Shown: in pieces, positions 18,326 through 30,380 of the stretch
How the letters are laid out: every line of letters starts with the position of its first letter
How positions within the stretch are numbered: the first letter of the stretch is position 1
The notes under the pieces: model-generated
Told to the model about the DNA's origin: nothing
What the model saw: the letters and a program-made list of their open reading frames with translations, nothing else
Database searches by the model: none
Translations under genes and position numbers: made by a program
Assembly (NCBI GenBank): GCA_030390025.1
Contig: JASTWF010000033.1
Location: 2,606,001 to 2,670,000 of the forward strand
Source of the DNA: Squalus acanthias
Lineage: Eukaryota
Length of the DNA stretch: 64,000 nucleotides
Direction of reading: 5' to 3'

Positions 18326-18384
18326 TCACTTGGCTGCGTCACGTTCAGATAATCGATTAACTTCTGCTCTTTGATATCTAGACC

Positions 18385-18988
18385 ATGGCGACGCATCACT
18401 CTGACTCATTGCCTCAGCCAGTGAAGGAAACACAAGAAGCTGAGCCTTCGACCCACCATCGTCAGTTAGATGCTAAGGATCTGCAGGCGATTATGTCTTT
18501 CACCAACTTTGACATAGCTAAATTGGTGGAGCAGATTGAAATCGACGACCATGTGATTTGCCGGCAAAGGAAGAGAGGCTTCAACCATCAGATGAGAAGT
18601 GAACTGAAGAGACTCAAGACCTTTGAGAGCTTCGATTCCTTTGCCACCTGGAATCCCGAGGAGATGGCGAGCGTGGGCTTTTATTACACGGGGTTGAAGA
18701 TGAGTGTGCAATGCTTCTGCTGTGGGGGAGTTTTCTGCAGTACCGGCATCACAAAATCGCCCGGGTCAGAGCATCAGACGTTTGAGCCGGACTGTGGCTT
18801 TGTGAAAACGTTGGATGTTGGAAACATTCCAAAGTATGCTGTGCGGGTCCAGGTACCTGAGGGTGTTCCGCTCAACCGAGCGGAACAGTTAAAAGGGCAA
18901 CAAGTCAGACTTGAGACCTTCAAAGGCTGGCCTTTCTACGTGAAGATGGAGCCTGATCTACTGGCAAAAGCAGGATTTTTCTTTACAG
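18385..18988 (+). CDS. NAIP: NAIP (BIRC1)-like gene, first coding exon: N-terminus, BIR1 and first half of BIR2
   Basis: GFNHQMRSELKRLKTF, VQCFCC-x16-H-x6-C, DVGNIPKYAVRV, RLETFKGWPFYV and AGFFFTG parallel human NAIP as recalled (GYNSQMRSEAKRLKTF, IQCFCC, DVGNIAKYDIRV, RLASFRNWPFYV, AGFVFTG). Acceptor ctag at 18378-18381, Kozak accATGG, donor AG|GTATTG at 18989 (phase 1). Confidence 0.88.
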
Positions 18989-19039
18989 GTATTGACAATC
19001 AGCAAATAACACATTGGGAGACAGTATATGAGTAATCGG

Positions 19040-20140
19040 AGACATGATGTGTGGTGAGTGCAGCGTGCGTAGTGGCAGGAGGCAGAGGGTGATGGTCGAA
19101 GCTTGTTTCTGTGACTGGAAGCCTGTGTCCAGTGGTGTACCGCAGGCATCGGTACTGGGTCCTTTGCTGTTTGTAGTGTACATTAATGATTAGATATGAA
19201 TGTAGGAGGTATGATCAGTAAGTTCGCAGATGACACGAAAATTGGTGGAGTGGTAAATAGCGAGGCGGGAAGCCTCAGGCTACAGGACTATATAGACGGG
19301 TTGGTCAGATGGGCAGAACAGTGGCAAATGGAATTTAACCCTGTAAAATGTGAGGTGATGCATTTTGGGAGGACTAACAAGGCAAGGGAATACACAATGG
19401 ATGGTAGGACCCTAGGAAGGACAGAGGATCAGAGGGACCTTGGTGTGCATGTACATATATCCCTGAAGGCAGCAGGACAGGTAGATAAGGTGGTTAAAAA
19501 TGCATATGGGATACTTGCCTTCATTAGCAGAGGCATAGAATATAAAAGCAGGGAGGTTATGATGGAGCTGTACAAAACGCTAGTTAGGCCACAGCTGGAA
19601 TACTGTGTGCAGTTCTGGTCGCCACACTATAGGAAGGATGTGATTGCATTGAAGAGGGTGCAGAGGAGATTCACCAGGATGTTACCTGGGCTGGAGCGCT
19701 TCAGCTATGAAGAGAGATTGAGAGGCTGGGGTTGTTTTCATTAGAGCAGAGAAGGCTGAGGTGGGACCTGATTGAGGTGTAAAAAATTATGAGGGGCATA
19801 GTTAGGGTAGATAGAAAGGAGCTTTTCCCCTTAGTAGAGGGGTCAGTAACCAGGGGGCATAGTTTCAAGGTAAGGAGCAGGAGGTTTAAAGGGGATTTGA
19901 GGAAAAGCTTTTTCACCCAGAGGGTGGTTGGAATCTGGAACTCACTGCCTGAAAGGGTGGTAGAGGCAGGAACCATCACAACATTCAAGAAGCATTAAAT
20001 GAGCACTTGAAACTCCATAGCATACAAGGCTACGGACCAAGTGCTGGAAAATGGGATTAGAATAGATAGGGCATGATGGCCGGCGCGGACACGATGGGCC
20101 GAAGGGCCTCTTTCTGTGCTGTATAACTCTTTGACTCTAT
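19040..20140 (+). mobile_element. CR1 LINE 3' portion (intronic to NAIP)
   Basis: ORFs 19196-19744 and 19789-19998 (FADD, RPQLEYCVQFWSPH); nearly the same subfamily as 27600-29165. Confidence 0.9.
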
Positions 20141-20459
20141 GTTCGGGAGGAGCATTTTACTTTGGACCTCTGGTTCCCAAAGATCTCGAACCACTGGGGG
20201 TTTTCCTCGCCTCATGTCTGAGTCTGTTGTAGACTCATTGATGGAGATTGATTGCCACGATTGGTCAACAATTCCACTGACGTTGTATCTTGCGACTACC
20301 AGGATGGTAGAAGGCGGACTAGATGGACTAGATCTTTTTTAGTCTAGAATTTCCTATGTTCCTATGTTTCTATGAAGAATAGACACTCTACCAGTTAATT
20401 CCCCTTTGCCACTCCAACATACCCAAACCTCTCCTTGTTTCCAACTTCATGAATGCATA

Positions 20460-28462: not shown

Positions 28463-29166
28463 TTTCAAATAAAACTGTTGGACTATAACCTGGTGTTGTG
28501 CGACCTCTCAATTTTGCCCACCCCAGTCCAACACCGGCATCTCCGCATCATAGAATATAAGAGCAGGGAGGTTATGATGGAGCTGTACAAAACTCTAGTT
28601 AGGCCACAGCTGGAATATTGTGTGCAGTTCTGGTCGCCACACTCTCGGAAGGATATGATTGCATTGGAGAGGATGCAGAGGAGATTCAACAGGATGTTAC
28701 CTGTGCTGGAGCGCTTCAGCTATGAAGAGAGACTGGACAGGCTGGGGTTGTTTTCCTTGGAGCAGAGAAGGCTGAGTTTGGACCTGATTGAGGTGTACAA
28801 AATTATGGGGGGCGTAGATAGGCTAGATAGAAATGAACGTTTCCCCTTAGTAGAGGGGTCAATAACAAGGGGGCATAGTTTCAAGTTAAGGGGCAGGAGG
28901 TTTAAAGGGGATTCGAGGAAAAGCTTTTTCACCCAGAGGGTGGTTGGAATCTGGAACTCACTGCCTGAAAGGGAGGTAGAGGCAGGAAACCTCACAACAT
29001 TCAAGAAGCATTTAGATGAGCACTTGAAAAGCCACAGCATACAAGGCTACGGAACAAGTGCTGGAAAATGGGGTTAGAATAGACAGGGCTTGATGGCCGG
29101 CGCGGACACGATGGGCCGAAGGTTCTCTTTCTGTGCTGTATAACTCTATGACTCTATGACTCTATG

Positions 29167-29818
29167 TCCTAACTCGCACCAAGTCCTGTTCACCCATCTC
29201 CCCTGTGCTCACTGACCTACATTGTCTCCCAGTTAAGCAACACCTCGATTTTAAAATTCTCATCCTTGTTTTCATATCCATCCACGGCCTCGACCCTCCC
29301 TATCTCTGTAATCTTCTCCAGCCCTATAATCCCCCGAGATATCTGTGCTCTGCCAAATCTGGTCCCTTTAACAGCCCTGATTTTAATTGCTCCACGATTG
29401 TCGACCGTGCCTTCAGCGGCCTAGCCCCTAAGCTCAGGAATTCCCTCCCTAAACTTCTCCGCCTCGCTACCTCTCTTTTCTCTTTTAAGGTGCTCCTTAA
29501 AACCTGCCTCTTTGACAAAGCTTTTGGCCATATGCACTAACATCTCCTCATATTCGTTAAAAAGTACTTGGATATGCTCATGAAGTGCCGTAAGCTACAA
29601 GGCTACGGACCAAGTGCTGGAAAGTGGGAGTAGGGTGGATAGCTCTTTGTCGACCGGCACGGACAAGATGGGCCGAATGGCTTCCTTCTGTGCTGTAAAT
29701 TTCTATGATTCCATGATTATATGGCTAGGTATCAAATTTTGTATTTTATTAATGCTCCTGTGAAGCGCCTTGTGATGATTTATTACGTTAAAGGCACCAT
29801 ATAAATGTAAGTTGTTGT
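29167..29818 (+). mobile_element. L2 3' end, interrupted by a CR1 3' fragment (~29555-29720)
   Basis: ORF 29205-29540 (LHCLPVKQHLDFKILILVF...RAFSGLAPKLRNSLP); tail tacgttaaaggcaccatataaatgtaagttgttg. Confidence 0.75.
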
Positions 29819-30087
29819 GATATTGTGATTGTCCCAACACAGTCTAGGTAGAAATCCTACAATCATCATGCAGGGGAGATTTCTTTTTGAAACTCTAAGT
29901 TCTAGAGGTGATAGTGCAGTGTTCTAACCCATCAGACCACCTCATCCCTCATGACATGCGACACCCAGCAAAGAATGGAAGTGTTGATCACAAGCCAGGT
30001 TCACCAAGAGAGCGCGGACTGTTGGCTGAAACATCGAACTAGAATTTCCTATCCAGCCATGATTGTTCCTAACTACTCATCCAACAG

Positions 30088-30187
30088 GTATCAAGGATAA
30101 AGTCCAGTCCTTTTCCTGTGGTGGGAGCTTAGCAAACTGGGAAGAAGGCGGTGATCCATGGAAGGAGCATTCCAAATGGTTTCCAGA
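30088..30187 (+). CDS. NAIP: NAIP-like gene, second coding exon (second half of BIR2)
   Basis: Acceptor cag 30085-30087, donor GTAAGT 30188; 100 nt, phase 1 to phase 2, in frame with 18988. Encodes (G)[32 protein letters not shown], vs recalled human NAIP GKQDTVQCFSCGGCLGNWEEGDDPWKEHAKWFP. Confidence 0.88.
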
Positions 30188-30380
30188 GTAAGTTAAGTCT
30201 GCATATTTGGCAGGGTGATGGAGGAGAGCAATAATGGTCCACTTCCCTGGAGCAAGGCATCATCCCATAGAACAGCAGGATTTGACCGATGTAGATATTG
30301 GCAGGGATTGAGTACTTCCACATATGTGCACACCATCCTGGCCTCGCATGCACCTCGAAACAGGAGCGTCTGGAGCCTAG

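What the first reader, a model, noticed from the sequence alone, without database searches (positions are those of the whole stretch)
18382..30193. NAIP (BIRC1)-like gene in an apparent cartilaginous-fish genome
Seen: two exons with canonical splice sites and matching phase, separated by an 11,099-bp TE-filled intron. They encode a complete BIR1 (CxxC-x16-H-x6-C) and most of BIR2. Knowledge: the pre-BIR1 motif (FNHQMRSELKRLKTF) and the linker (DVGNIPKY) are NAIP-like rather than XIAP/cIAP-like. NAIP is the flagellin/T3SS sensor of the NAIP-NLRC4 inflammasome, characterised mainly in mammals and generally reported missing from model teleosts. Inference: a NAIP-type sensor may date to the jawed-vertebrate ancestor. 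I cannot tell whether this locus is already annotated.
Basis: partly seen in the sequence, partly recalled or inferred. Interest (0 to 1): 0.75.

Follow-up and report, generated by a model that had tools for sequence, protein, structure and literature searches.

The report
Truncated duplicate of shark NAIP gene
This stretch holds only the first two coding exons of NAIP, a bacteria-sensing immune gene already reported in sharks; the complete gene lies on another contig, and this piece is one of about 30 partial copies, most likely a decaying by-product of segmental duplication rather than a working sensor.

Summary
The two exons, their splice sites, the 11,099-bp intron and the NAIP identity are real. 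The interpretation needs two corrections. First, NAIP in sharks is already annotated (8 proteins, 7 species) and in print (PMC8455134, PMC11258412). Second, this locus is not the gene but a 5'-only duplicate. No later exon lies in the next 114 kb, which has no gaps. Its BIR2 has lost the first zinc cysteine (C209S) and an invariant aspartate (D223G), and the exon with the fourth zinc ligand is missing. The parent is a complete 14-exon, 1,439-aa BIR×3–NACHT–LRR gene on contig C3403, with an NLRC4 on C12. The assembly holds about 35 NAIP-derived loci: 1 complete, 4 near-complete, 29 5' fragments and 1 broken 3' fragment, many among tRNA genes. Pooled fragment changes look neutral (dN/dS 0.9–1.3). 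Likely-RNA contigs from public runs show the parent's splicing, not this copy's sequence. The scan found a sister copy before and read it the same way. The point still open is whether the near-complete copies lacking the last LRR exon do anything.

The parts
18382..18988 (+). Exon A of the NAIP fragment (ATG at 18385): N-terminal segment, complete BIR1 (about 18610-18807), linker, start of BIR2
   Evidence: 17 nt differences from the parent exon on C3403. A likely-RNA contig of run X2 starts matching at 18382 after 20 unmatched bases, which fits a 5' UTR exon spliced to this AG in the parent gene.
18989..30087 (+). GT-AG intron, 11,099 bp; ancestral pieces 18989-20779, 22495-22843 and 29164-30087
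   Evidence: 91-95% identical to the 3,362-bp parent intron
20780..22494 (.). Inserted LINE-derived DNA absent from the parent intron
   Evidence: RVT_1 in the frame 21583-22299(-)
22844..29163 (.). Nested LINE-derived insertions absent from the parent intron. Part is shared with sister copies; 24120-25672 and 28095-28548 are not in the three closest sisters (C3168, C2561:1.22 Mb, C29), and 28095-28548 has a 14-bp target-site duplication
30088..30187 (+). Exon B: middle of BIR2, with C209S (codon 30108-30110) and D223G (30150-30152). If the donor at 30188 is read through, a TAA follows at 30189-30191
   Evidence: C209 and D223 are each invariant in 26 of 26 vertebrate NAIPs
30380..30954 (.). 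32-bp minisatellite, also present in intron B-C of the parent gene; homology to the parent ends here (breakpoint)
30955..31228 (+). tRNA-bearing unit fused to the breakpoint (tRNA 31151-31223), shared by four sister fragments (92-97%)
1612..18381 (.). Upstream part of the duplicated block, collinear in pieces with the DNA upstream of near-complete NAIP copies (about 88-94%); includes tRNA genes and a 33-bp minisatellite (12548-16069)

Best explanation
The locus is a 5'-only segmental duplicate of the shark NAIP gene, holding upstream DNA plus exons A and B, and is likely a decaying pseudogene fragment. Shown: the parent is a complete 14-coding-exon gene on C3403 (169,647-209,465, minus strand) encoding a 1,439-aa BIR1-3, NACHT, WHD/HD, LRR protein. 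The window copy stops at a minisatellite in intron B-C, which is joined to a tRNA unit. It has gained about 8 kb of LINE insertions, two substitutions at invariant BIR2 residues, and has no exon for BIR2's last cysteine. Inferred: NAIP sits in a tRNA-gene-rich, duplication-prone region on small contig C21/C3403; unequal recombination copied blocks of tRNA genes plus the NAIP 5' end to other places, and recombination at the minisatellite cut off the 3' end in the five-copy branch that includes this locus. Any product would be a 234-residue N+BIR1+broken-BIR2 peptide without NACHT or LRR, so it could not bind ligand as NAIP does or nucleate NLRC4. The parent likely works as in mammals: it would bind a flagellin- or T3SS-type ligand and seed NLRC4 (C12) oligomerisation. 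Its ligand is untested.
For: No exon after B: tblastn of 4 shark NAIPs over 174 kb of C2561 without N finds only A and B, and blastn of all 14 parent exons finds only A and B there. The genome-wide exon C search finds 26 copies, none on C2561 (40 of 1,977 candidates scored; the rows after the 26th are short repeat matches). NACHT exon: 5 copies, none on C2561 (31 of 31 scored). Last exon: one intact (C3403) and one broken (C26) (10 of 10 scored). Parent model is GT-AG throughout, stop-free, with 3 intact BIRs and a Walker A. C209 and D223 are invariant in 26 of 26 NAIPs, and C236 is present in 25 of 26. All 4 changes private to the window copy are non-synonymous. Across 17 fragments with complete A+B, there are 95 non-synonymous or stop versus 27 synonymous variants (one near-universal variant set aside), dN/dS 0.89-1.28, p 0.31-1.0 against neutrality; 7 of 17 carry a stop or frameshift. 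Likely-RNA contigs in runs X1, X2 and X9 space exon A and exon D by 265-266 nt, exactly B+C+C2. In X1 and X2 they differ from the parent's exon D at 1 site; the X2 and X5 exon A contigs differ from the window's exon A at 17, the parent-to-window distance.
Against: The window copy keeps an open A+B frame, all four splice signals and an intact BIR1, as do 10 of 17 fragments. With about 21 changes and a 4-5% stop fraction, a copy stays open roughly 35-40% of the time by chance (arithmetic). Window versus parent is 14 non-synonymous to 7 synonymous changes (dN/dS 0.5-0.7, not significant). Its sisters show 12/11, 14/10, 19/11 and 12/6, which hints at some past constraint on this branch. It keeps about 17 kb of upstream homology and may keep the promoter. 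The six stop-carrying copies share one stop, so they are one event. One other fragment (C26:40.43 Mb) also differs from the window by 17 nt, so the count of 17 alone does not single out the parent. The runs are only guessed to be RNA, and the same-contig link between rests on equal length and depth.
Confidence: 0.86

Rival explanations
1. The fragment is a transcribed short gene whose N+BIR1 product (stop just after exon B, poly(A) about 1.4 kb downstream) acts as a decoy or modulator of NAIP-NLRC4 or of caspases, like the shortened isoforms made from partial human NAIP copies.
For: Open frame, intact BIR1 and splice sites, an in-frame stop at 30189, AATAAA/ATTAAA sites from about 31,570, and retained upstream DNA. 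The five-copy branch has relatively many synonymous changes. Partial human copies are reported as expressed and some shortened frames translated (PMC2685007, passages). In human NAIP the N segment and BIR1 form part of the needle pocket (PMC10803261, passages).
Against: Pooled dN/dS about 1; all 4 private changes are non-synonymous, including C209S; the pocket also needs HD1, which is absent; a window-specific dispersed repeat lies between the stop and the first poly(A) signal.
Confidence: 0.09
2. The locus is the 5' end of a complete NAIP whose remaining exons lie far downstream or are mis-assembled elsewhere.
For: Shark introns can be long, and the assembly has gaps next to some other copies (C21:9,855,427 and C21:10,996,577).
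Against: There are no N in 114 kb downstream. The contig is 6.7 Mb, yet genome-wide searches put no exon C, NACHT or last exon on it. Four sisters on other contigs or places break at the same junction. BIR2 is already broken.
Confidence: 0.03
3. The copy is an assembly artefact (false duplication of the parent).
For: Several copies are near-identical and may be uncollapsed haplotypes (C3403 and C21:9.86-9.92 Mb align at 98-99%).
Against: The window copy is 3% diverged in exons and 5-9% in introns. It has its own insertions, one with a target-site duplication, and shares derived insertions and a breakpoint with four sisters.
Confidence: 0.02

Closest known systems
Shark NAIP/BIRC1-like proteins (NCBI models of Carcharodon, Mustelus, Stegostoma, Rhincodon, Hemiscyllium and Cetorhinus; Scyliorhinus as a hypothetical protein)
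   Same: Exon A is 57-73% identical. The parent gene on C3403 has the same BIR×3-NACHT-WHD-HD architecture and is 51-63% identical overall.
   Different: The window locus has only 234 of about 1,440 codons, no NACHT or LRR, and a broken BIR2.
[quoted passage not shown]
   Same: One complete gene plus 5'- and 3'-deleted segmental duplicates; the window copy corresponds to the 3'-deleted pseudo-NAIP type.
   Different: Here there are about 35 NAIP-derived loci on 10 contigs, many among tRNA genes, and none is linked to SMN-type hits (C1, C19). It is an independent expansion: exons are 92-100% identical within this genome and only about 62% (protein) to other sharks.
Mouse Naip1-6 paralogue array (ligand-diversified sensors; PMC10803261, passages)
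   Same: A tandem array of NAIP copies (4 near-complete on C21 plus C3403).
   Different: The NACHT-HD exons here differ from the parent by only 2-7 of 709 residues (3 of 4 near-complete copies compared), so there is no sign of ligand diversification. Three lack the last exon and one is cut by an assembly gap.
XIAP / cIAP1-2 (BIRC2-4)
   Same: BIR fold and the zinc-ligand pattern.
   Different: Far weaker matches (E 1e-14 against 1e-57). The genome's own IAPs on C6 and C7 fall outside the NAIP-BIR1 clade.

Membership tests
NAIP (BIRC1) descent | BIR1 and pre-BIR segment group with NAIP, not with XIAP/cIAP | tested here: met
   (NAIP-BIR1 clade 100/99; sister to the C3403 gene 99/94 in the two-BIR tree). 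No mammalian NAIP or BIRC7 was in the trees.
Functional NAIP (window locus) | Three intact BIR domains | tested here: not met
   BIR1 intact; BIR2 has C209S and lacks exon C (C236); BIR3 exons absent
Functional NAIP (window locus) | NACHT, WHD, HD2 and LRR exons in cis | tested here: not met
Functional NAIP (window locus) | Purifying selection on the coding exons | tested here: inconclusive
   Pooled fragments dN/dS 0.89-1.28; window versus parent 0.5-0.73, p 0.17-0.47; private changes 4 non-synonymous, 0 synonymous
Functional NAIP (parent, C3403) | BIR×3-NACHT-LRR, intact frame, reciprocal best match NAIP | tested here: met
   (human NAIP E 2.5e-137 against NLRC4 1.8e-60)
Functional NAIP (parent, C3403) | Spliced transcript | tested here: met
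   Likely-RNA contigs join A-B-C-C2-D by exact spacing in runs X1, X2 and X9; a 3,383-nt contig of X1 starts on exon E with 0 differences. RNA status is a guess by the tool, and the organisms are coded.
NAIP-NLRC4 inflammasome | An NLRC4 partner in the genome | tested here: met
   C12:22.242 Mb, 709-aa open frame; best PDB hit human NLRC4 E 7e-198 against NAIP 1e-56. The CARD exon was not looked for.
NAIP-NLRC4 inflammasome | NACHT-NACHT salt bridges of the human complex (NAIP K569, R574, R590 with NLRC4 D222, D104, D125; PMC10803261) | tested here: inconclusive
   Read off the alignments with a 6-residue numbering offset that I inferred: NAIP K, N, R and NLRC4 R, D, D. Two of three residues are kept on each side, but only the R590-D125 pair is whole.
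NAIP-NLRC4 inflammasome | Binding of flagellin, needle or rod, and caspase-1 activation | not testable with these tools
   Needs reconstitution

The most novel reading that the evidence does not exclude
This shark lineage has amplified NAIP into about 35 loci, far beyond the five human copies, and part of the array is functional. Near-complete in-frame copies that lack only the last LRR exon could be sensors with altered C-termini, and the open N+BIR1 fragments such as this one could be expressed decoys that tune the NAIP-NLRC4 inflammasome.
Probability: 0.1. Interest if true: 0.55.

Novelty: new member of a known kind. Interest (0 to 1): 0.2.

Why it matters
The headline (NAIP is as old as jawed vertebrates) is already published, and this locus is a fragment, so it adds little by itself. 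What is useful is the map. It locates the one complete NAIP and the NLRC4 of this genome, which are the genes to use for asking what an early-branching vertebrate NAIP senses. It warns that gene counts here would be inflated by some 30 fragments. It also shows a second, independent case of NAIP sitting in a duplication-prone region with one full and many partial copies, as in humans.

Tried and rejected
XIAP/cIAP identity: rejected. Further exons in the window or flanks: none. Fusion of exon B to a new downstream gene: after the breakpoint come a tRNA unit and a dispersed repeat with thousands of candidates (3,358; 40 scored); no listed ORF downstream was tested against Pfam. Synteny with SMN as in humans: SMN-type hits are on C1 and C19, not on the NAIP contigs. 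The inverted 58-bp piece of exon A at 16740-16797 looked like a mark of the fragments, but the same upstream DNA is in the parent. RNA: no holder is on record as RNA; no contig matching the window copy and no A-B joint was listed, but the tables were cut and swamped by repeats, so this says nothing about expression; 4 of the 10 listed runs were laid. The third IAP (C24) gave no whole BIR and was left out of the trees; P0007, P0021, P0023, P0025-27 and P0029 were left out of the trees, and P0021, P0023 and P0026 out of the conservation count. Papers: PMC4067322 used NAIP only as a funder's acronym (passages); PMC7033609 gave nothing on NAIP copy structure (passages); PMC9680067 says NLRC4 is reported only in mammals (passages), which the two later-cited papers contradict. 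No paper on a NAIP copy expansion in a shark turned up in five searches (listings only, apart from the papers opened); subscription papers and supplements (for example Supplementary file 12 of PMC8455134, not opened) may bear on this. No structure or complex prediction was run.

Full report
Observation. The window has a GT-AG pair at 18989/30087 enclosing 11,099 bp, with an AG at 18380-81 and an ATG at 18385. The 604 coding bases of exon A join exon B (100 bases) in phase, and a GT donor follows at 30188. Pfam finds BIR in both pieces. BIR1 is complete. Four of five intron frames tested match LINE reverse transcriptase or endonuclease.

Identity. Exon A matches solved NAIP structures at E 1e-57 to 2e-53, and XIAP at best 1e-14. 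A search of longer proteins returned 31 hits among 424 candidates. Of these, 29 are NAIP-type, and the top eight come from seven shark species at 57-73% identity, seven already named BIRC1-like. In a tree of 73 single BIR domains, the window's BIR1 lies in a NAIP-BIR1 clade (100/99) and a shark subclade (99/88), apart from this genome's own IAPs on C6 and C7. The tree has few columns and long outgroup branches. So the sequence is NAIP-derived and the genome is shark-like.

Prior knowledge. PMC8455134 (passages) lists BIRC1 and NLRC4 among whale shark orthologues and concludes that jawed vertebrates share a core NLR set. PMC11258412 (passages and section 5) states that NLRC4 with an accompanying NAIP is found in species as ancient as sharks.

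The locus is a fragment. No further exon appears in the window or in 174 kb of C2561 without any N, reaching 114 kb past exon B. Genome-wide, exon A gave 20 full-length matches at 90-100% plus three frameshifted ones (69 of 69 candidates scored). Exon B gave 32 matches at 81-100%, six with a TAG (45 of 45 scored). Exon C gave 26, none on C2561. The NACHT exon gave five, on C21 and C3403 only. The last exon gave one intact copy on C3403 and one broken copy on C26.

The parent. C3403:169,647-209,465 (minus) has 14 coding exons with GT-AG boundaries and a stop-free 1,439-aa frame with three intact BIRs and a Walker A. It is 62.5% identical to the Carcharodon protein over its whole length. Two small exons (C2, F2) were found by scoring AG-GT candidates against other sharks; for F2 three acceptors tie. 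Its NACHT exon matches human NAIP best. A 709-aa frame on C12 matches NLRC4 best. Of the three NACHT salt bridges in the human complex (PMC10803261, passages), one pair is fully kept (numbering offset inferred).

Census. I count 35 loci on 10 contigs: 1 complete; 4 near-complete on C21 (three end after exon K, one of these also lacks exon B, and one is cut by an assembly gap after exon I); 29 5' fragments (17 with whole A+B, 9 with a clipped A plus B and C, 2 with B and C only in the stretch fetched, 1 at a contig end); and one broken 3' fragment. Searches give lower bounds, while uncollapsed haplotypes may inflate the count: C3403 aligns with C21:9.86-9.92 Mb at 98-99%.

How the window copy arose. 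Window 1,612-30,798 is collinear in pieces with the upstream DNA and 5' end of a near-complete copy. Homology to the parent ends in a 32-bp minisatellite (30,380-30,954) that the parent also has in intron B-C. Beyond it lies a tRNA unit shared by four sisters (C21:10.49 Mb, C2561:1.22 Mb, C29, C3168), and these five form one branch. The window has five tRNA-like genes and a vault RNA, the 174-kb region 22 tRNA calls, and six of seven regions around other copies examined had one to four tRNA calls in 20-30 kb, the seventh 13 in 110 kb; the 70 kb around the complete gene had none. About 8 kb of the intron is inserted DNA. That the cut came by recombination at the minisatellite, and that tRNA arrays drove the dispersal, is inference.

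Selection. The window differs from the parent at 21 codons (14 non-synonymous). C209 and D223 are invariant in 26 of 26 NAIPs. The four private changes are all non-synonymous. Over 17 fragments, dN/dS is 0.89-1.28 depending on the transition bias assumed, and 7 of 17 have a stop or frameshift. Against this, the window copy's frame, BIR1 and splice sites are intact, and its branch has more synonymous changes than the rest, though not significantly for the window copy itself (p 0.17-0.47).

Expression. Ten runs hold about 30% of the exon A words; none is on record as RNA. In the four laid, contigs of X1, X2 and X9 carry exon A and exon D 265-266 nt apart, exactly exons B+C+C2. X1 and X2 show one difference from the parent's exon D; the X2 and X5 exon A contigs differ from the window at 17 sites, and X9 is more distant (41 and 8). 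These are transcripts of an exon-D-bearing gene, so not of the window copy. They neither show nor exclude transcription of the fragment.

Comparison. Human NAIP has one full and four partly deleted copies, some expressed (PMC2685007, passages). The window copy is the analogue of the 3'-deleted ones. Unlike mouse Naip paralogues, the near-complete copies here are almost identical in the NACHT-HD exon (2-7 residues).

Verdict. Interest 0.2.

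Noticed in passing
G000:C3403:169647-209465 (-) (loci L057-L061): The only complete NAIP found in the assembly: 14 coding exons, 1,439 aa, on a 309-kb contig.
   Followed up: yes
G000:C21:9.86-10.34 Mb: Tandem units of a near-complete NAIP plus a 5' fragment. The copy at 10.045 Mb reads in frame through exon K (9-nt deletion at the start of K) but has no last exon. Exons A-H are 97.5-100% identical to the parent while I-K are only 95-97%, which suggests recent gene conversion or a mosaic.
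   Followed up: partly
G000:C21:9855427 and 9872385-9896009: The copy at 9.91 Mb is cut by a 200-N gap after exon I, has Tyr at the first BIR3 cysteine and a duplicated exon F; it may be the other haplotype of C3403.
   Followed up: partly
G000:C12:22242193-22244211 (+) (L034): NLRC4 NACHT exon, open for 709 aa; the CARD exon was not looked for.
   Followed up: partly
window 31151-31223 and 7354-7426: ARAGORN calls these tRNA-Ala (TGC, CGC), but homologous places in other copies are tRNA-Val (TAC, CAC): apparent A-to-G anticodon shifts, with low Rfam scores (36.8 and 42.7 bits), likely pseudogenes. The TGC form is shared by four copies.
   Followed up: partly
window 595-685 (-): Vault RNA gene (Rfam RF00006, 48.1 bits) beside tRNA-Lys genes.
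   Followed up: no
G000:C2561:2587000-2605000 (L031, L032): Array of tRNA-Phe/Ile/Glu triplets with a period of about 2 kb just upstream of the window (18 calls).
   Followed up: no
window 16740-16797 (-): Inverted 58-bp piece of exon A about 1.6 kb upstream of the ATG; the surrounding DNA is also upstream of the parent, so it predates the duplications.
   Followed up: yes
window 12548-16069, 40280-40880, 41660-42384, 45695-45932: Minisatellites of 33, 18, 18 and 24 bp whose long repetitive open frames are not genes as far as tested.
   Followed up: no
   Followed up: no
G000:C1:149149609 and C19:39909978: SMN-type Tudor hits lie on other contigs than any NAIP copy; a sturgeon model (P0021) fuses SMN and NAIP domains, so the SMN-NAIP linkage seen in bony vertebrates may be absent here.
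   Followed up: partly
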